In this document: in pieces, positions 55,832-64,000 of the stretch
Position numbering within the stretch: the stretch's first letter is position 1
Layout: the number at the start of each line of letters is the position of its first letter
DNA from: an uncultured Aminicenantes bacterium
GTDB lineage: Bacteria > Acidobacteriota > Aminicenantia > UBA2199
Length of the DNA stretch: 64,000 nt
Direction of reading: 5' to 3'
Assembly: GCA_965195285.1 (NCBI GenBank)
Contig: CBDAFS010000011.1
Span: 1 to 64,000, forward strand
Program-made: the position numbers and the translations under genes
The notes under the pieces: generated by a model
Seen by the model: the letters and a program-made list of their open reading frames with translations, nothing else
Told to the model about the DNA's origin: nothing
Databases searched by the model: none

Positions 55832-58243
55832 TTATAAATCTTTGAAAATGTTTGATCTTTCTTTGTATTCTTTTTTCTTTTTTGCCAGAATCTTTTTAAA
55901 TCGGGGATCATCCATCAGTTTGTTGTAGCAAGGATTGTTCAACAGGTGCAGGTAGGAATGGGTCCTGGGATTTGCTTTCATGCTTTGTTCGAGGGATCCA
56001 AAAGCTTCCTCTTTCATCCCCAGCAGGGCATACACTTTGTCGTAAGGTTCCTTCATGGTTCTCAATGCCAGTTCTTTTTCCCCTTTTACTGCATAAAGCA
56101 AAGCCCTGTAACTCCAGATATCTGGATTTTGCCCATCCAGTATTTCGGCGATTTTTAACTCCTGTTCGGCCTTCTGGTATTGTGAAAGTAAAATGAGCGA
56201 ATAGGAATACCATAGATGGTACTCGGCATCGTCGGGATCCAATGCCAGGACCTTTTTATACTGGATAGCGGCTTTTTCCCAGGCTCCCATTTCCATATAA
56301 CACCGGGCCAGAACCATAGGTGTATATACATAGAGAGGATTGAGCTCAATGGCTTTAATTAAATATTTTAGGGCTTTATCTTCCAGTCCAACCCGATCAA
56401 GGATTAAACCGATGACATGATTCCCTTCGGCGCTATTGGGGTTTAATTGGTTGGCTTTGTTTAAGCACTGGCTGGTATGCTGGTGATCTCCTTTAAGGTA
56501 GTAAAGCCAGCCCATTCCCTGGTTGGTTTCGGGTATATCCGGGTTTAATTGATAAGCTTTCTTTATATGTATTTCTACCTGATGGCGATCTTCTTTGTTG
56601 CCGGTTATTTCGTAATGTTGTTGATGAATCCATGCCAAACTGGAATAGGTCAGGGCGTTATTGGGATCAATTCCCAGAGCCTTGTTCAGCAGGTTTTTGG
56701 CTTTAATAAAATCCTCCTCTTGTTTTGTAATGACATAGGAGGTGATCAACTGACTGGCCTTTAGTAAATATTCGTATGATTCAATATCCTCTGGTTTTTC
56801 TGTTTTCAAGATTTCCGGTGAAAACTGCAACCGTAATGCCTGGGCTATGGATTGGGATATGTTCTCCTGCACCTTAAAAATACTTTCCAATTTTCGGTCA
56901 AAGGTTTCAGCCCAGAGGTGAAAGCCGTCCTCAATATTGATCAGCTGGGCCGAGACCCGGATGTTATCCTGTTCTTTACGGAGACTTCCTTCTAATATTG
57001 TAGACACACCTAATTCTTTTCCTATTTGTTTAATATCTTTTTTGGTATTTTTATAACGCATGACCGAGGTGCGGGAAATCACTTTTAGTTCCCGGATATG
57101 GGTGAGTTTGGTGATGATATCCTCGGTCATGCCGTCGCAGAAGTATTCCTGATCCTTGTTGGCACTCAGATCCATAAAGGGAAGCACGGCAATGGAATTT
57201 GTCCAGGAGCTCTGAGTGATTGTTTTTGAGATGGGTTCTGGTGTGGAAGGTTTGCCTTTGAATAAAATGTATCCTCCGATTAAGATGGCCAGGATTACGA
57301 CAATAATCATAGTCGGCAGCAGCAACCTGGATGTTTTCCGGGCAGTATCTCTGATGTGGATACCCTTCTCGGAAACAGTTCTGTCTTTTATGGATTCCAG
57401 ACCACTCAGCAATCCGGTTACCTCCTGAAAACGGTTGTCCGGTTCTTTGGCCAGGGATTTCTCAATCAGTTGCCAGAGTTCGGTTGGTGTTTCCGGCCGG
57501 AGTTCAGTCAGTGGTTTTGGCTTCTCATTTAATATGGCATAGATAATGGCCTGTTCGTAGTCCCCTTTAAAGGGCAATTGCCCGGTGATCATTTCATAAA
57601 GGATCACACCTAGTGACCAGATGTCTGTTCTGTGATCTACCTCTTTACCCATTGCCTGTTCCGGGGACATGTAATTGGTCGTGCCCATGGTGGTGCCGAT
57701 TTTGGTGATGGAGGGCGAATAGCCATTCGCTTCTACACGCAACTTGGCTAATCCGAAATCCAGGATTTTTACCCGGCCATCTTTATCGATCAGAATATTC
57801 TGGGGTTTGATATCCCGGTGAACGATTCCGGCTTCGTGGGCTTTTTGGAGGCCCTCGCAGATTTGGATAGTTATATTGATGATTCCTTTTATTGTAGGGG
57901 CAATCCTCGCGGTTGCCCGGGCAGGGGCAAGCCCTGCCCCTACACCTGATATTATTTCCTTTAAGGTCTGGCCTTCCACATATTCCATGGCGATGTAGGT
58001 TTGATCTTCGTGTTCGTTGATTTCATAAATTGTAACGATGTTGGGATGGTTCAGGGCGGCAGCAGCCTGGGCTTCCCGCTGAAACCGTTCCACCGCATCT
58101 TTATCCTTGGTAAATCCCTGGGGTAAGAATTTAAGAGCCACTTTTCGTTTTAACTTGGTATCTTCAGCTAAAAATACTTCCCCCATGCCTCCTTCTCCGA
58201 TTTTTTCCAGGATTTTGTAGTGGGAAACAATTTGATTGATCAA
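55832..58243 (-). CDS. Hanks-type Ser/Thr kinase-TM-TolB-like-TPR protein with two REP-derived in-frame inserts (probable TTG start at 58243)
   Basis: GEGGMG, VALK, HRDIKPQN, DFG, YMSPE, DIWSLG; TM; SIAVLPF..EYFCDG; TPRs; AAGGAG 7 nt before TTG. Confidence 0.95.
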   Translation of the reverse strand: MINQIVSHYKILEKIGEGGMGEVFLAEDTKLKRKVALKFLPQGFTKDKDAVERFQREAQAAAALNHPNIVTIYEINEHEDQTYIAMEYVEGQTLKEIISGVGAGLAPARATARIAPTIKGIINITIQICEGLQKAHEAGIVHRDIKPQNILIDKDGRVKILDFGLAKLRVEANGYSPSITKIGTTMGTTNYMSPEQAMGKEVDHRTDIWSLGVILYEMITGQLPFKGDYEQAIIYAILNEKPKPLTELRPETPTELWQLIEKSLAKEPDNRFQEVTGLLSGLESIKDRTVSEKGIHIRDTARKTSRLLLPTMIIVVILAILIGGYILFKGKPSTPEPISKTITQSSWTNSIAVLPFMDLSANKDQEYFCDGMTEDIITKLTHIRELKVISRTSVMRYKNTKKDIKQIGKELGVSTILEGSLRKEQDNIRVSAQLINIEDGFHLWAETFDRKLESIFKVQENISQSIAQALRLQFSPEILKTEKPEDIESYEYLLKASQLITSYVITKQEEDFIKAKNLLNKALGIDPNNALTYSSLAWIHQQHYEITGNKEDRHQVEIHIKKAYQLNPDIPETNQGMGWLYYLKGDHQHTSQCLNKANQLNPNSAEGNHVIGLILDRVGLEDKALKYLIKAIELNPLYVYTPMVLARCYMEMGAWEKAAIQYKKVLALDPDDAEYHLWYSYSLILLSQYQKAEQELKIAEILDGQNPDIWSYRALLYAVKGEKELALRTMKEPYDKVYALLGMKEEAFGSLEQSMKANPRTHSYLHLLNNPCYNKLMDDPRFKKILAKKKKEYKERSNIFKDL
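57713..57736 (-). repeat. Degenerate GTAG-type REP-like palindrome in the kinase activation loop
   Basis: Minus strand GTAG-AAGCGAAT-GGCT-ATTCGCCC, encoding VEANGYSP. Confidence 0.7.
57894..57943. mobile_element. Tail-to-tail doublet of GTAG-type REP-like palindromes (minimal REPIN), in frame in the kinase domain
   Basis: GTAG-GGGCAATC-CTCGC-GGTTGCCC directly joined to GGGCAGGG-GCAAG-CCCTGCCC-CTAC; 25+25 nt. Confidence 0.88.
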
Positions 58244-58335
58244 CACTCCACTCCTTCCTGATTTATAACAAAAAAAAATTTTTATTACAATCCCCCCCTC
58301 GGGCATTTCCGGAATAATATTGGGGATTGCATTCC

Positions 58336-58364
58336 TTTACTTCTGAATGCCGGATTGTTAGAAT
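58336..58364 (+). promoter_or_regulatory. Sigma70 promoter of the DASS permease, probably leaderless
   Basis: TTTACT-17 nt-TAGAAT with TGn, 5 nt before ATG. Confidence 0.6.
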
Positions 58365-58369
58365 GACCG

Positions 58370-59893
58370 ATGGTTCGATTCACTTCAGGAGACGGATTCA
58401 AAAAACTGTTTCTGATCCTGGCTCCGGTTCTGTGTGGGTTGTTCTTGATCCTGGTGGATCTGAAACCCGGTCATCCGGAGGTCACCGCCACCGCGGCCGT
58501 TGCCCTGCTCATGGCTGCCTGGTGGATTACCGAGGCCATTCCCCTGGCCGTGACCGCCCTGATCCCCTTGATCCTGTTTCCCCTGCTGGGGATCATGAAC
58601 GGCAAGGATGTCTCCACCCAGTATGTGAACCATATCATCTTCATATTTATCGGTGGATTTCTGGTGGCCCTGGCCATGGAGCGTTGGAACCTTCACAAGC
58701 GAATGGCCTTAAAGGTGTTGATGTTTTTCGGGGTGAATCCGAAATTTATCCTGCTGGGTTTTATGGTGGCCACGGCCCTGCTGTCCATGTGGATTTCCAA
58801 TACCGCCACCACCATGATGATGATACCCATTTCCCTGGCCATTGTGACCAGACTGGAAGAATTGTTGGGAGTTAAAAAGGTACGAAAATTTGCCATCGGC
58901 ATATTTCTGGGTATTGCCTACAGTGCTTCCATTGGCGGGATTGCCACCCTGATCGGTACCCCGCCCAATCTCTCTTTTGTCAGAATTTTCAACATCTTTT
59001 TTCCCCACGCACCGGAGATTTCGTTTGCCAAATGGTTCTTCTTTGCTTTCCCTATATCGGTATTTTTTCTTGTTATTGCCTGGATCCTGCTCTCGCTGAT
59101 CTTTTGTCCCCGGGAAGGATTAATTGTGGACAAAAAGATATTCGTTGATCAGTATAAAAACCTGGGCCCCACTTCCTTTGAAGAAAAAGTGGTGTTAATT
59201 GATTTTTTTATCCTGGTTTTTTTGTGGATGTTCCGGGCCAATATTAAAATCGGCGGATTTGTTATTCCGGGCTGGTCCACCATTTTTCCCCAGGCCGGTT
59301 TTATCAACGACGGAACCATTGCTGTTGCCATGGCTTTTATCATGTTTTTAATTCCATCCAGAACCCAAAGAGATGGCCGGGTGATGAACTGGGAAACGGC
59401 TAAGAAATTGCCATGGAACATTGTGCTCCTGTTTGGCGGCGGATTTGCCCTGGCCAGCGGTTTCAAGGTCAGCGGCCTTTCTCAATGGATGGGGAGTCAG
59501 TTGAAGGGATTGAGTTCGCTTCCCCCGCTGTTGATCGTCGCCTTTATTTGCCTGTTCATTACTTTTTTAACCGAACTGACTTCCAATACGGCCACGGCTG
59601 AGATACTCTTGCCCATTCTGGCTGCCCTGGCGGTTTCGATCAAAGTGAATCCCCTGCTGTTGATGATTCCGGGAACCCTATCCTGTTCCTTTGCCTTCAT
59701 GCTTCCCGTGGCCACCCCCCCCAATGCCATTGTCTTCGGAACCAACCGGCTCAAGGTTTCGGATATGGCCCGGGTGGGAGTGATATTCAACCTGATTGGG
59801 GTGGTGGTAATCACTGCAGCGGTTTTTTTGATCGGGAAGTTTATCTTCGGAATCGATCTGTCAGTCCTCCCCTCCTGGGCAGTTTTAAAATGA
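58370..59893 (+). CDS. DASS/SLC13 sodium:dicarboxylate/sulfate symporter
   Basis: WWITEAIP, SMWISNTAT, IGTPPN, TELTSNTAT, FMLPVATPPN. Confidence 0.95.
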   Translation: MVRFTSGDGFKKLFLILAPVLCGLFLILVDLKPGHPEVTATAAVALLMAAWWITEAIPLAVTALIPLILFPLLGIMNGKDVSTQYVNHIIFIFIGGFLVALAMERWNLHKRMALKVLMFFGVNPKFILLGFMVATALLSMWISNTATTMMMIPISLAIVTRLEELLGVKKVRKFAIGIFLGIAYSASIGGIATLIGTPPNLSFVRIFNIFFPHAPEISFAKWFFFAFPISVFFLVIAWILLSLIFCPREGLIVDKKIFVDQYKNLGPTSFEEKVVLIDFFILVFLWMFRANIKIGGFVIPGWSTIFPQAGFINDGTIAVAMAFIMFLIPSRTQRDGRVMNWETAKKLPWNIVLLFGGGFALASGFKVSGLSQWMGSQLKGLSSLPPLLIVAFICLFITFLTELTSNTATAEILLPILAALAVSIKVNPLLLMIPGTLSCSFAFMLPVATPPNAIVFGTNRLKVSDMARVGVIFNLIGVVVITAAVFLIGKFIFGIDLSVLPSWAVLK

Positions 59894-61585: not shown

Positions 61586-62668
61586 TTAATAACCTGGAGG
61601 AGGAGTGGTGGTCAGCTGTGAAAGAGACCGGCGGGTGCAGTAGGGGATGAAGTTCCGGTTATAGGATTTGTCGTAGGCATCACTGGCAAATTGCAGGGCA
61701 TACTCACAGTTGAAAACCGGCAATCCCTGTGATTGGAACAGGCTCAGGTTATTGAGGTATTCCTGGCGCCAGTCTTCCGGAACATTCCAGTCATAACCAT
61801 CCGGAACATTCCAGTTATCGGTGGCATCCCCTTCAAACCAGATGCCTTCCTGGGCAATTCCATCGATCAAAGAAAAAAGTTCGGGATGACCATTGGCCAG
61901 AGCCGAACCGTTCTGCTGAATGATAAAAAAAGGCGTGGTTCTGGTTTGGGCGTAATCCCTCATTTCCCGGATGAAGTTGATCATTTCTACCCGGGGATTT
62001 TTACCCTGCTTTTGGGCTGCTTCTATAACCGCCTCATTTTCAAATCCCTCGACCCAGTCCAGATAAATCCCGTCAAATCCGTCTTTTATGGTTTCATCAA
62101 TCATACTGTTGTAATCACCATAAGGACTGCTGTCCTGGTTATTTCCATGAATGACAATATCTTTCCAGCGGGGATCCCAATAAGCCACCGGGTAATTCCC
62201 TTCCCAACCGTCCGGGTCGTGGGTAAGGATAAAGTCGGGCCAGTCCGGAGGGCGGGGTTCACCCGGCTCCCATTCTGTTGACCAGGTCCAGTACCAGCGC
62301 CAGTCTTCTGCCTGGCCGATATCGATGTAAGCGATCAATAGTTTTCGGTGGATTCCGTCACTGGCCAATGAATTTTTTAATTGTTCCACCATTCCCTGGG
62401 TATCAAAAAGCTTGTCATCCGAAGACCAGTCCGTGCGGGTGGGTTCAACAACCAGCAGGTCATAATGGGAATTTGTTAATTGGTCCACAGCTCCGTTTTC
62501 AGAAATCTCCTGAATCTGGTAAGCCCAGAATTTGATTTCATTTAAAGGTAAAACGTTATCCGAAGATTGGCTGTCATCAATGGTTGAACAACAAACCAGG
62601 AACATTAGGATAGAAATAAAAACGGAGTAAGGTACATTTTTTTTACGAGAGATGGTTTTTCCGATCAT
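61586..62668 (-). CDS. GH114-like (MJ1477/TM1410 family) endo-alpha-1,4-polygalactosaminidase-like lipoprotein
   Basis: WAYQIQ, IAYIDIGQAEDWRWYW, GFDGIYLD, QQNG; lipobox-like LVCC. Confidence 0.87.
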   Translation of the reverse strand: MIGKTISRKKNVPYSVFISILMFLVCCSTIDDSQSSDNVLPLNEIKFWAYQIQEISENGAVDQLTNSHYDLLVVEPTRTDWSSDDKLFDTQGMVEQLKNSLASDGIHRKLLIAYIDIGQAEDWRWYWTWSTEWEPGEPRPPDWPDFILTHDPDGWEGNYPVAYWDPRWKDIVIHGNNQDSSPYGDYNSMIDETIKDGFDGIYLDWVEGFENEAVIEAAQKQGKNPRVEMINFIREMRDYAQTRTTPFFIIQQNGSALANGHPELFSLIDGIAQEGIWFEGDATDNWNVPDGYDWNVPEDWRQEYLNNLSLFQSQGLPVFNCEYALQFASDAYDKSYNRNFIPYCTRRSLSQLTTTPPPGY

Positions 62669-64000
62669 TCCTCCAGACCTATGTCCCTCAGCATCTTTTT
62701 GATCCTGGGGTCCTTTAATAGCGGATCACATCGGCCCAGGCCATATCGGCTCAGGATGGTAATATCTCGATGCTCGATCGCCTTTTTGTACCATTTTATG
62801 GCTTTATCCATATCACCCAATTCGGCATAAATAATGGCTATGATACCGGGATAGATGGATGCCACTTCTAAAAGAGTGGTTTGTAATTCCTGAAAAAATT
62901 TTCTGGCTTGATTTATTTTTCCCTGCGAGATTAGAATCCGGAATTTCATATATTCAAAAAATTGGGGAATTTTTGATTGGGATGCCAGTTCCAGTACTTT
63001 ATCATAAGACTTTTCCTCCAGGTAAGCATTTATCAGGATTAAATTAGCCAGCTCCATATTTGGATTTATTAATAAAACCCTGTTTACCAATTTTATTGAT
63101 TCAGGGTATTTTTTTTCTGATAGATAGATGTTTGCCCTTACCAATTTGGTAATGAATGAAAGGGGATTCAGTTCCTCGGCCAGGTTGAGCTCTTTGTGGG
63201 CTAATTTAAACTTCCCTCGGATAAAATAGTGCTCGGCCAGCCACTGGTGGGCAGTGGCATAGTTGGGATTTAGGGAAATGGATTTTTTTAATGCTTGCTC
63301 AGCGCCGGTGAAATCCCAGGTCCAGTAGTTTTTTATTCCGCCAAGGGCTGCATGTGCCTCGGCCAGGTTTTTATCCAGTTTTAAGGCTTTAAGACAATAT
63401 ATTTCAGCTTTAGGGTAAACAATTTTTGATTCTCCAAAGTGCAAATCGCCTATCACCAGGTAGGTCAGAGCCAGGCCAGCATAACCCAGAGCATAATCAG
63501 GATCTAACTCCACTGCTTTTTCAAAATAAGAAATGGCCTTTTCAAGGTCCTGAGAGGTCCGTCTGTTCCAGTGGGATCTGCCCTGCAGGTATAATTTATA
63601 TGCTTCTATATTTTCGGTGGGTTTTTGATAAATTCTTTTGCTGGTGGTCGGCAGAAGTTTTACTCTCAGAGTTTTGGCAATCTGGTTGGCCACATCACTC
63701 TGGATGTCGAAGATATCTTTCATCTCTCTGTCATAGGTTTCAGCCCAGAGATGGTCATCGGTCAGAGCATTGATCAATTGAGCGGTAATACGCACTTTCC
63801 CCTTGGTCTGGCGTACACTGCCCTCTAAAATCGTGGTGACACCCAGTTCATGGGCAATATCTTTTATCTTCTTTTCCTTATTTTTGAAATAAAAAACCGA
63901 AGTCCGGGAGGTCACTTTCAGGTCAGAGATTTTGGATAGCTGGGTAATGATATCTTCGGTAATGCCGTCACAAAAATACTCGTTTTGTTTGTCCTCACTC
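62665..64000 (-). CDS. TolB-like plus TPR C-terminal part of a second kinase-family paralogue (5'-truncated by window)
   Basis: Frame is open to the window edge: EYFCDGITEDIITQLSKISDLKVTSRTSV, LEGSVR, HLWAETYDR, TPRs, DPR C-terminus, paralleling 55832..58243. Confidence 0.88.
   Translation of the reverse strand, partial: SEDKQNEYFCDGITEDIITQLSKISDLKVTSRTSVFYFKNKEKKIKDIAHELGVTTILEGSVRQTKGKVRITAQLINALTDDHLWAETYDREMKDIFDIQSDVANQIAKTLRVKLLPTTSKRIYQKPTENIEAYKLYLQGRSHWNRRTSQDLEKAISYFEKAVELDPDYALGYAGLALTYLVIGDLHFGESKIVYPKAEIYCLKALKLDKNLAEAHAALGGIKNYWTWDFTGAEQALKKSISLNPNYATAHQWLAEHYFIRGKFKLAHKELNLAEELNPLSFITKLVRANIYLSEKKYPESIKLVNRVLLINPNMELANLILINAYLEEKSYDKVLELASQSKIPQFFEYMKFRILISQGKINQARKFFQELQTTLLEVASIYPGIIAIIYAELGDMDKAIKWYKKAIEHRDITILSRYGLGRCDPLLKDPRIKKMLRDIGLEE

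What the first reader, a model, noticed from the sequence alone, without database searches (positions are those of the whole stretch)
57894..57943. Minimal REPIN (two inverted GTAG-REP palindromes) translated in frame inside a Ser/Thr kinase
Seen: a GC-rich 50-nt island in AT-richer coding DNA, made of two different 25-nt units. Each unit is GTAG plus an 8-bp hairpin with a 5-nt loop (GGGCAATC/GGTTGCCC with one G-T pair; GGGCAGGG/CCCTGCCC perfect), fused tail to tail with no spacer. It reads as VGAGLAPARATARIAPT between TLKEIISG and IKGIINITIQI, i.e. the alphaD-alphaE kinase-insert loop, where these kinases normally have only a few residues. Known: GTAG plus hairpin is the architecture of REPs mobilised by RAYT/TnpA(REP) HUH tyrosine transposases, and such REPs are usually extragenic; coding palindromic inserts are best known from Rickettsia RPEs. 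Inference: a recent REPIN insertion tolerated in a surface loop.
Basis: partly seen in the sequence, partly recalled or inferred. Interest (0 to 1): 0.88.

Follow-up and report, generated by a model that had tools for sequence, protein, structure and literature searches.

The report
REP hairpin pair inside kinase gene
A 50-base pair of small mobile DNA hairpins (REPs) lies in frame in a floppy surface loop of a bacterial signalling kinase; such in-gene REPs are already described, but here the same kinase loop has been colonised many times.

Summary
Window 57894-57943 is two GTAG-footed 8-bp hairpins joined tail to tail. It reads VGAGLAPARATARIAPT inside an intact Hanks-type Ser/Thr kinase (55832-58306, minus strand).

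- **It is a REP doublet.** One unit is letter-identical to a 25-mer found in other genera of the same bacterial family and in at least 120 loci of many phyla. There it is often paired with the same partner type.
- **The site can be empty.** Orthologues in a congener and in another genus lack the insert. The predicted structure places it between helices alphaD and alphaE, at pLDDT below 50.
  - An identical copy sits in a tandem paralogue 6.8 kb away, inside a tract of about 94% identity (gene conversion).
  - A decayed single unit (57713-57736) lies in the activation loop.
  - Of 95 related kinase domains, 15 carry intact REP units of several different types in this loop.
- **Transposases.** RAYT-type genes exist in the genome, but none is flanked by these particular units.

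In-frame GTAG REPs are published (PMC3733652, PMC6006769), and this scan has noted them before on other DNA. This is a new member of a known kind, with a notable hot spot.

The parts
57894..57918 (+). REP unit u1: GTAG foot on the + strand, 8-bp stem with one G-T pair, 5-nt loop. It encodes (R)ATARIAPT on the kinase's strand.
   Evidence: It differs at two positions from the partner type GTAGGGGCAACCCTTGCGGTTGCCC seen in related genomes.
57919..57943 (-). REP unit u2: GTAG foot on the coding (-) strand, perfect 8-bp stem, 5-nt loop. It encodes VGAGLAPAR.
   Evidence: The exact 25-mer occurs in G005 (6 copies), G074 (2), G059 and G066 and in at least 120 loci of other phyla.
57713..57736 (-). 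Decayed single REP unit (GTAGAAGCGAATGGCTATTCGCCC on the coding strand), encoding VEANGYSP in the activation loop.
   Evidence: DNA alignment. The orthologue G002:C137 has the intact form GTAGGGGCGAATGGCTATTCGCCC = VGANGYSP. Empty in G001:C194 and G024:C111.
57407..58219 (-). Hanks-type kinase catalytic domain (271 aa) that hosts both REP-derived inserts.
   Evidence: PF00069 E = 3.2e-59. Catalytic residues K30, E49, HRD134-136, N141, DFG154-156 and SPE185-187 are invariant in alignment A1. AF2 pTM 0.83.
55832..58306 (-). Kinase K1: kinase domain, membrane-spanning stretch, FlgO-like segment and TPR repeats.
57616..57996 (.). Approximate tract of about 94% DNA identity with paralogue K2. It contains both REP-derived inserts and is read as a gene-conversion tract.
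   Evidence: 338 of 360 aligned columns identical, against 181 of 240 upstream and 154 of 300 downstream.
62668..64000 (-). 3' part of paralogue K2 (G000:C11:62668-65073). Its identical 50-nt doublet lies just beyond the window at C11:64700-64749.

Best explanation
The 50 bases are a minimal doublet of two GTAG-footed REP hairpins, a REPIN-like element. It belongs to a REP family that is spread through this bacterial family and far beyond, and that is tied to RAYT-type (Y1 HUH) transposases. It sits in frame in the DNA that encodes the alphaD-alphaE loop of a Hanks-type Ser/Thr kinase.

**Why it is tolerated.** A GTAG unit on the coding strand reads Val-Gly-Ala... without a stop. The loop is a disordered surface loop away from the catalytic residues. 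The kinase therefore stays intact and remains under purifying selection.

**How it spread locally.** The REP-bearing middle of the gene was copied to, or exchanged with, the tandem paralogue K2 by gene conversion.

**The wider pattern.** The same loop, plus two other loops of this kinase clade (beta3-alphaC and the activation loop), has been colonised repeatedly by different REP family members in paralogues and in other genera.

**Shown:** the anatomy, family membership of the units, empty orthologous sites, loop location, recurrence, the conversion tract and purifying selection.

**Inferred:** that RAYT enzymes moved the units, that the present doublet is young, and the direction of conversion (K1 to K2).
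For: **Anatomy and stability:**

**Family membership**
- Unit u2 is identical to copies in four other genomes of the family. The relaxed pattern matches 31 of 72 genomes, and the reversed-pattern control is 0 in all 72.
- The exact 25-mer occurs in at least 120 loci of Chloroflexi, Armatimonadota, Nitrospirota, Bacteroidota and other phyla.
- In 18 of the 80 loci fetched with flanks, u2 has a tail-to-tail partner within 90 nt, mostly of the ...CCGCAAGGG... type that u1 belongs to.
- u2-spacer-u1 doublets lie in frame in an adenylation-type ORF and in RAYT genes of related genera.

**Own-genome relatives**
- Related copies with compensatory stem changes lie between genes (C3, C31, C62, C51).

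**Transposases**
- PF01797 matches 17 places, 16 over the cut-off. The eight ORFs scanned score 62-80 bits on NF047646 'REP-associated tyrosine transposase', whose cut-off is 80.
- Two more RAYT genes, C20:3952-4488 and C49:9268-9915, are flanked and interrupted in frame by their own GTAG units.

**Empty sites**
- G001:C194 (same genus) and G024:C111 are empty in both loops.
- G024:C111 is 70% identical to K2 over 479 C-terminal residues, so it is K2's orthologue.

**Loop location:** the insert is residues 93-109, between helix 86-91 and helix 110-129, with pLDDT below 50 at residues 94-105.

**Gene still under selection**
- dN/dS is 0.10 for K1 against G002:C137 over 268 codons.
- In the activation segment, which includes the REP-derived insert, dN is 0.008 and dS 0.49.

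**Recurrence**
- Of 95 kinase domains, 15 have an intact GTAG unit in this loop, 61 are empty and 19 have other long loops.
- A quick tree needs 12 changes between filled and empty, and well-supported branches force at least 5. Shuffled labels need 13.8-13.9 on average, and 39-49 of 500 shuffles need as few.
- The units in the G008 and G003 kinases are exact members of a REP family with 20-32 strand-wise matches (palindromic copies match on both strands) in G060, G062, G066 and G069.

**Independent assemblies:** contigs of three runs cover the element together with its flanks.
Against: - No RAYT in this assembly (94.9% complete, 62 contigs) is flanked by u1 or u2. None of the 16 PF01797 ORFs examined has a GTAG hairpin of the REP families within 400 bp; the scan turned up only two weak, AT-rich chance hits, at C26 and C12.
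- Copy number in this genome is low: the u2-type cluster has 6 members, and u1-type units form clusters of 4 and 2.
- The doublet is 50 nt but the loop is only 39 nt longer than the empty state, so this is not a clean insertion.
- The closest orthologue (G002:C137) has a different doublet with the same boundaries. That fits replacement, or in-place evolution, as well as fresh insertion.
- In G008 at least 3 of the 5 loci holding its unit are kinase paralogues. In G003 the unit is single-copy. Some of the spread is therefore by gene duplication, not by transposition.
- Transposition itself has not been observed.
Confidence: 0.8

Rival explanations
1. One old insertion in an ancestral kinase was inherited vertically and through gene duplication. 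Its hairpins are kept by selection, for example as an mRNA or DNA structure that tunes expression or recombination, and change by compensatory substitution. No recent mobility is involved.
For: K1 and G002:C137 share the same boundaries (GGT|GTAG ... CTAC|AAT) but differ inside. In G008 the unit lies mostly in kinase paralogues. In G003 it is single-copy. All kinase-borne stems are perfect or nearly so.
Against: Kinase-borne units are letter-identical to dispersed repeats in other genera and phyla, which in-place drift would not produce. Filled and empty kinases are interleaved on the tree almost as in shuffled labels: 12 changes against a shuffled mean of 13.8-13.9. Empty orthologues sit next to filled ones.
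Confidence: 0.12
2. The REP-encoded loops have been taken over for kinase function, for example as a docking or regulatory loop, or as extra Tyr/Ser acceptors in the activation loop. On this view they are more than tolerated passengers.
For: The activation-loop insert is conserved at protein level between two species while synonymous sites have diverged (dN 0.008, dS 0.49). It adds Y and S residues next to the TT motif.
Against: The alphaD-alphaE inserts differ completely in sequence and length among close relatives and are predicted to be disordered. Close orthologues do without them.
Confidence: 0.1
3. The palindromes are a chance by-product of a Gly/Ala/Pro/Arg-rich loop, or an assembly artefact of a metagenome bin.
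For: The genome is a 62-contig bin. Some contigs end inside kinase paralogues next to REP units (C19, C25, C33).
Against: Fold z-scores are -3.6 and -3.0. The 25-nt unit is exactly identical to dispersed repeats, and the reversed control is 0 in 72 genomes. Contigs from three runs of at least two studies span the element and its flanks.
Confidence: 0.02

Closest known systems
Intragenic GTAG-tagged REPs, single and dimeric (Di Nocera, De Gregorio and Rocco 2013, PMC3733652; passages and supplement file 3 seen)
   Same: These are GTAG foot plus hairpin units, often as inverted dimers, lying in frame in genes for known proteins. They encode about 8-30 residues and are argued to sit in linkers or loops. 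One listed host is the Opitutus terrae Ser/Thr kinase Oter_3506 (dimer at residues 625-640).
   Different: Here the inserts are inside the catalytic domain, in the alphaD-alphaE loop, the activation loop and (in relatives) the beta3-alphaC loop. The same loop is occupied by different REP types in many paralogues and genera. The passages I read report repeated hosts mainly among repair and replication genes.
REPs of TnpA_REP subclass 2.4 / RAYT group 4, including 'double-foot' REPs and REP insertions inside the transposase gene (Quentin et al. 2018, PMC6006769; passages seen)
   Same: The hairpin bottom is three G-C pairs next to GT[AG]G. There is a foot at both outer ends (GTAG...CTAC). Insertions keep the reading frame. 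This genome's C20 and C49 RAYT genes carry their own REPs between the HuH and Tyr motifs, as that paper describes.
   Different: The kinase element is two separate hairpins with no spacer, not one long double-foot hairpin. Its own RAYT was not found in this assembly. I did not place the RAYTs in that paper's classification.
REPIN-RAYT systems of Pseudomonas (Bertels and Rainey 2011, PMC3116915; search listing and abstract only)
   Same: Two inverted REPs form the mobile unit, and they are linked to a Y1 transposase.
   Different: By that abstract and from memory, Pseudomonas REPINs are extragenic, have a spacer and reach hundreds of copies with a single RAYT. Here the copy number is low, the spacer is zero, the location is coding, and there are many Y1 paralogues.
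Rickettsia palindromic elements (RPEs), as cited in PMC3733652's Background
   Same: They are palindromic repeats inserted in frame in genes that remain functional.
   Different: By PMC3733652 the intragenic Rickettsia conorii repeats RPE-4 and RPE-6 fall in the CGTC-tagged class, not the GTAG class. RPE-1 is longer.
Kinase insert region between helices alphaD and alphaE of receptor tyrosine kinases (recalled, not from a call)
   Same: It is the same permissive position in the kinase fold.
   Different: It has a eukaryotic, non-repeat origin and often serves as a docking region. No such role is shown here.

Membership tests
GTAG-tagged REP / REPIN | A GTAG tetranucleotide directly at the foot of a GC-rich hairpin of about 20-40 nt | tested here: met
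   two units, each GTAG plus an 8-bp stem and a 5-nt loop.
GTAG-tagged REP / REPIN | Member of a repeated family with copies at unrelated, mostly extragenic sites | tested here: met
   Relatives lie between genes at C3, C31, C62 and C51. The exact u2 unit occurs in four other genomes of the family and in at least 120 loci of other phyla. Copy number in this genome is low.
GTAG-tagged REP / REPIN | Two units in inverted orientation acting as one doublet | tested here: met
   The units are tail to tail with a zero spacer. The same u2 plus u1-type pairing, with spacers of 3-58 nt, occurs in 18 of 80 loci and in L045, L049 and L051.
GTAG-tagged REP / REPIN | A cognate RAYT gene flanked by the same units (REPtron) | tested here: not met
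   None of the 16 PF01797 ORFs examined has a GTAG hairpin of the REP families within 400 bp. The two REPtrons found (C20, C49) carry other unit types. In related genera, RAYT genes carry u2 and u1 inside the gene. The assembly is 94.9% complete.
GTAG-tagged REP / REPIN | Evidence of mobility: orthologous empty sites | tested here: met
   G001:C194 and G024:C111 are empty at both loops. Transposition itself was not observed.
Hanks-type Ser/Thr protein kinase | Kinase fold with the catalytic Lys, HRD, DFG and (A/S)PE motifs | tested here: met
   PF00069 E = 3.2e-59. The motifs are invariant in A1. AF2 pTM 0.83.
Double-foot REP of TnpA_REP subclass 2.4 | A single long hairpin with 5' GT[AG]G and 3' C[TC]AC | tested here: inconclusive
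   Both feet are present and the outer GTAG/CTAC pair in the fold, but the interior is two hairpins. PMC6006769 says a double-foot REP could arise from an inverted dimer by central deletion.
Rickettsia RPE | Membership of the RPE sequence families | not tested
   Compared only through the text of PMC3733652.

The most novel reading that the evidence does not exclude
The alphaD-alphaE loop of this kinase clade acts as a fixed landing pad bounded by GTAG...CTAC feet. RAYT enzymes repeatedly insert or swap REP cassettes there. The conserved Gly-Pro-Leu-Pro codons (GGN CCC CTA CC) imitate a REP foot and so attract insertion. The result is transposase-driven variation of loop length and sequence in signalling kinases, including the activation loop, and some variants are later kept by selection.
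Probability: 0.12. Interest if true: 0.7.

Novelty: new member of a known kind. Interest (0 to 1): 0.4.

Why it matters
In-frame REPs show how much foreign sequence a protein loop can absorb. This case adds a natural series: the same loop of one enzyme family is empty, holds one unit, or holds different doublets, across paralogues and species.

That series can be used in two ways:
- To define what REPs and RAYT enzymes choose as a target, which is still not settled experimentally (my recollection, not a call).
- To ask whether inserts in a kinase activation loop change signalling.

For genome annotation, the case warns that short Gly/Ala/Pro-rich inserts such as VGAxxxxP in proteins of these lineages are repeat-derived.

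Tried and rejected
- My first window pattern had the wrong spacing and found nothing. It was replaced by scripts.
- The loose hairpin scan (195 hits) was mostly noise. Stricter criteria were used.
- A search for GTAG hairpins within 400 bp of the 16 PF01797 ORFs found no REP-family unit, only two weak AT-rich hits.
- The tblastx synteny output was messy. I used only the 479-residue match between K2 and G024:C111.
- Antisense 'units' at the conserved GT..YMSPE motif, and a few others (L019, L024, L226), are chance hairpins and were not counted.
- **Rows dropped before the tree.** L188 and L193 were translated in the wrong frame and were left out. The short fragment C33 was also left out.
  - No contig joins across the 50-nt element. 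One weak joint skipping 124 nt (depth 4.4, side 20) probably comes from another kinase.
  - RNA-library contigs cover 58006-58251 nearly exactly but not the element, so transcription across it is not shown.
- No Rfam family matches at E up to 1 in 57400-58400.
- No paper in the searched library holds the unit or its peptide.
- Nothing on REPs in kinase loops appeared among the 12 papers listed.
- The sequence look-up in the scan's earlier notes was blank.
- **Target mimicry by the GPLP codons.** This stays an idea only. Empty sites read CCC TTG CCC, CCC TTA CCC or CCC CTA AAA, so the match to CCCCTAC is partial.
- **Organism name.** 'Aminicenantes' comes from earlier notes of this scan and was not tested here.
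Full report
**1. Observation**

Window 57894-57943 reads GTAGGGGCAATCCTCGCGGTTGCCC followed directly by GGGCAGGGGCAAGCCCTGCCCCTAC. This is two units, each a GTAG foot, an 8-bp stem and a 5-nt loop, in inverted orientation and with no spacer.

The stretch lies in ORF 55832..58306 on the minus strand (824 aa) and is translated as VGAGLAPARATARIAPT.

Folding results:
- As single-stranded DNA it forms both hairpins, closed by the outer GTAG/CTAC pairing: -18.4 kcal/mol, z = -3.57, 0 of 200 shuffles as good.
- In the mRNA sense: -32.8 kcal/mol, z = -3.01, 2 of 200 shuffles as good.

GC is 0.70 over 57900-57949, in a genome of 42% GC. No Rfam family matches the region.

**2. The host gene**

The protein has a protein-kinase domain (PF00069, E = 3.2e-59), then a membrane-spanning stretch, a FlgO-like segment and TPR repeats.

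In an alignment of 26 related domains the catalytic Lys, the alphaC Glu, and the HRD...N, DFG and SPE motifs are invariant.

An AlphaFold2 model of the 271-residue domain (pTM 0.83, mean pLDDT 82.9) gives the following:
- The insert, residues 93-109, lies between a helix at 86-91 (alphaD) and a helix at 110-129 (alphaE).
- pLDDT is below 50 for residues 94-105.
- A second low-confidence stretch, residues 157-176, is the activation loop.

**3.

The exact 50-mer occurs twice in the 3.28-Mb genome. The second copy is at C11:64700-64749, 6.8 kb away and just past the window's end. It sits at the same position of a paralogous kinase, K2 (C11:62668-65073).

K1 and K2 are 53% identical as proteins, but their DNA identity varies along the gene:

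| Part of the alignment | Identical columns |
|---|---|
| Tract at about window 57616-57996 | 338 of 360 |
| Upstream of the tract | 181 of 240 |
| Downstream of the tract | 154 of 300 |

This is the pattern expected of gene conversion between tandem paralogues.

K2's orthologue in another genus (G024:C111, 70% identical over 479 C-terminal residues) has no insert. The tract therefore probably moved from K1 to K2. That direction is an inference.

Inside the same tract the activation loop carries GTAGAAGCGAATGGCTATTCGCCC (window 57713-57736, minus strand, VEANGYSP). This is a decayed copy of the genome's commonest REP type. The orthologue G002:C137 has the intact GTAGGGGCGAATGGCTATTCGCCC (VGANGYSP) at the same place.

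**4. The units belong to a REP family**

In this genome a strict scan finds 54 repeated GTAG-hairpin units in seven clusters.
- u2's cluster has six members.
- u1-type units fall in clusters of four and two.
- The intergenic relatives (C3:12456-12525, C31:72537-72606, C62, C51) differ from the kinase units by paired changes that keep the stem, for example GGGCAGGG/CCCTGCCC against GGGTAAGG/CCTTACCC.

Across 72 genomes of the same family, the pattern GTAGGGGCAGGN{5,9}CCTGCCC matches 31 genomes, while the reversed control matches none. The exact u2 25-mer is present in G005 (6 copies), G074 (2), G059 and G066.

The records are labelled Chloroflexi, Armatimonadota, Nitrospirota, Bacteroidota, Planctomycetota, Caldimicrobium, Rheinheimera and others.

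Of the 80 loci fetched with flanks:
- 18 have a tail-to-tail partner within 90 nt, mostly of the ...CCGCAAGGG... type to which u1 belongs. The commonest spacers are 3-8 nt.
- 7 lie in an open frame of at least 200 codons in the VGA reading.

In related genera the same u2-spacer-u1 doublet lies in frame in an adenylation-type ORF (L045) and inside RAYT genes (L048, L051).

The kinase element is thus a bona fide, unusually compact member of a widespread doublet type.

**5. Transposases**

PF01797 (Y1_Tnp) matches 17 places in the genome, 16 of them over the cut-off.
- The eight ORFs scanned score 62-80 bits on NCBIfam 'REP-associated tyrosine transposase' (cut-off 80), well above their IS200 scores. 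Four of the eight also match DnaA over its C-terminal part, and Pfam finds the Bac_DnaA_C helix-turn-helix in the two of these it scanned.
- None of the 16 ORFs examined has a GTAG hairpin of the REP families within 400 bp. The scan found only two weak AT-rich hits.

Two further RAYT genes were found through the relatives' proteins: C20:3952-4488 and C49:9268-9915.
- They score 58 and 57 bits on the same NCBIfam model.
- They are flanked by GTAG hairpins and interrupted by them in frame.
- Quentin et al. 2018 describe exactly this for TnpA_REP subclass 2.4 (PMC6006769, passages).
- Their units are of other types.

A RAYT flanked by u1/u2 was therefore not found. This is the one membership feature that failed.

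**6. Empty sites and recurrence**

Between fixed alignment anchors the loop is 17 residues long in 51 of 97 rows and 18 in 9 rows. It is 30 in K1 and K2.

The congener orthologue G001:C194 and G024:C111 are empty in both loops (KEVIASRPLPVAKVIEI).

Other states at the same position:
- The closest orthologue, G002:C137 (79% identity), has a different doublet with a 10-nt spacer. Its boundaries are the same: GGT|GTAG on the left and CTAC|AAT on the right.
- G014:C247 has a single u2-like unit.
- Own paralogues C40, C19 and C25 carry GTAGGGGCGAA(T/C)GGCGGTTCGCCC (VGANGGSP) there.
- C33 has a unit in the beta3-alphaC loop, as do G014:C417a/b and, in decayed form, G024:C26.

Of the 95 kinase domains used (97 rows, less two read in the wrong frame; the fragment C33 had been left out before the alignment), 15 have an intact GTAG unit in the alphaD-alphaE loop, 61 are empty and 19 have other long loops.

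On a quick maximum-likelihood tree built without the loop columns:
- Filled and empty states need 12 changes.
- At least 5 changes are forced by branches with SH-aLRT of 95 or more.
- Shuffled labels need 13.8-13.9 changes on average, and 39-49 of 500 shuffles need as few as observed.

The state is thus barely clustered on the tree. The tree is short (205 columns) and poorly resolved, so the figure of 12 is soft.

The units in the G008 and G003 kinases are exact members of a REP family with 20-32 strand-wise matches in G060, G062, G066 and G069. This argues against in-place drift. Against that, in G008 at least 3 of the 5 loci are kinase paralogues, and in G003 the unit is single-copy. Duplication of already-filled kinases therefore also contributes.

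**7. Not a clean cut-and-paste**

- The doublet is 50 nt but the loop is 13 codons longer than the empty state.
- Single 24-nt units add 5-6 codons in this loop, 5 in the activation loop and 4 in the beta3-alphaC loop.
- At the DNA level the last CCC of the stem coincides with the loop's conserved Pro codon: empty TCT GGC CCC TTG CCC against filled TCA GGT GTAGGGGCGAATGGCGGTTCG CCC TTG CCT.
- In 32 of 37 units of this genome the base before GTAG is T.

Whether the site attracts REPs because GGN CCC CTA CC resembles a REP foot is an idea only. The empty sites match that foot just partly.

**8. The gene works**

- K1 against G002:C137 gives dN/dS 0.10 over 268 codons.
- In the 57-codon activation segment, including the REP-derived insert, dN is 0.008 and dS 0.49.

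These genes are under purifying selection with their inserts in place.

**9. Independent data**

Contigs of three public runs from at least two studies span the element together with its flanks, for example a 344-nt contig covering 57648-57991 with two differences. They also reproduce the K1-K2 arrangement.

No contig shows an empty allele. RNA-library contigs cover only 58006-58251. The best DNA holder may be the sample from which the genome was assembled.

**10. What is known**

- Di Nocera et al. 2013 (PMC3733652; passages and supplement file 3) describe GTAG REPs, single and dimeric, in frame in genes of several species. One host is an Opitutus terrae Ser/Thr kinase. They argue that such inserts sit in loops or linkers.
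- Quentin et al. 2018 (PMC6006769; passages) describe frame-keeping REP insertions in subclass 2.4 RAYT genes, and double-foot REPs.
- This scan's own notes hold 13 findings of in-frame GTAG REPs in other genomes.
- Searches for the unit, its peptide, or REPs in kinase loops found no paper.
- Earlier notes call the organism an uncultured sediment Aminicenantes. I did not test that.

**11. Verdict**

This is a new member of a known kind.

The added value lies in four points:
- The recurrent colonisation of the same kinase loops, including the activation loop.
- The different REP doublets with identical boundaries at an orthologous site.
- The conversion tract that copied the REP-bearing segment between tandem paralogues.
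- The cross-phylum identity of the unit.

Interest is moderate.

Noticed in passing
L234 (G000:C20:3952-4488) and L235 (G000:C49:9268-9915): Two RAYT genes are flanked by their own GTAG hairpins and interrupted by them in frame. One flank is a perfect 28-nt GTAG...CTAC palindrome at C20:4500-4527. C49 holds a short array of units after the HuH motif.
   Followed up: partly
L001-L010 and other G000 places listed: There are 16 diverged Y1_Tnp paralogues, most about 300-330 aa. Four of the eight scanned also match DnaA over its C-terminal (helix-turn-helix) part. They score just under the NCBIfam RAYT cut-off, and none has REP hairpins beside it. Their role is unknown.
   Followed up: partly
L233 (G000:C22:32-3289), unit at C22:2996-3020: A single u2-like REP unit (VGAGLAPAR) lies in frame inside the Type_ISP_C specificity domain of a Type ISP restriction-modification enzyme.
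   Followed up: partly
L053-L132 (named records): The exact 25-nt unit is shared by bacteria labelled as many different phyla. This suggests horizontal spread of this REP type, or very strong constraint by its transposase.
   Followed up: partly
G000:C3:12456-12525, C31:72537-72606, C62:120068-120132; also L043, L044, L046, L050: Between genes the same unit types often stand head to head: ...CTAC, an AT-rich spacer of 19-25 nt, then GTAG.... This is the opposite arrangement to the kinase doublet.
   Followed up: no
37 units of G000 listed: The base before GTAG is T in 32 of 37 units. The foot may therefore be TGTAG, or insertion may prefer a T.
   Followed up: no
L051 (G074:C12), around locus positions 1252-1276: A RAYT gene of a related genus carries u2 and u1 in frame. 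Its frame is then broken at a second, decayed u2 copy.
   Followed up: no
L177, L183, L184, L189, L212, L022, L023: The conserved kinase motif T-T-M-G-T-x-A-Y is encoded so that its antisense strand reads GTAGGC plus a weak hairpin. I treated this as a chance look-alike of a REP.
   Followed up: no
G000 contigs C19, C25, C33 (ends): Three contigs end inside kinase paralogues close to their REP units. The paralogous, REP-bearing kinases probably break the assembly.
   Followed up: no
window 57915 (run X3): A contig about 91% identical to K1 carries the REP region with one base missing in the u1 stem. The contig ends at 57945, so the effect on the reading frame cannot be judged.
   Followed up: no
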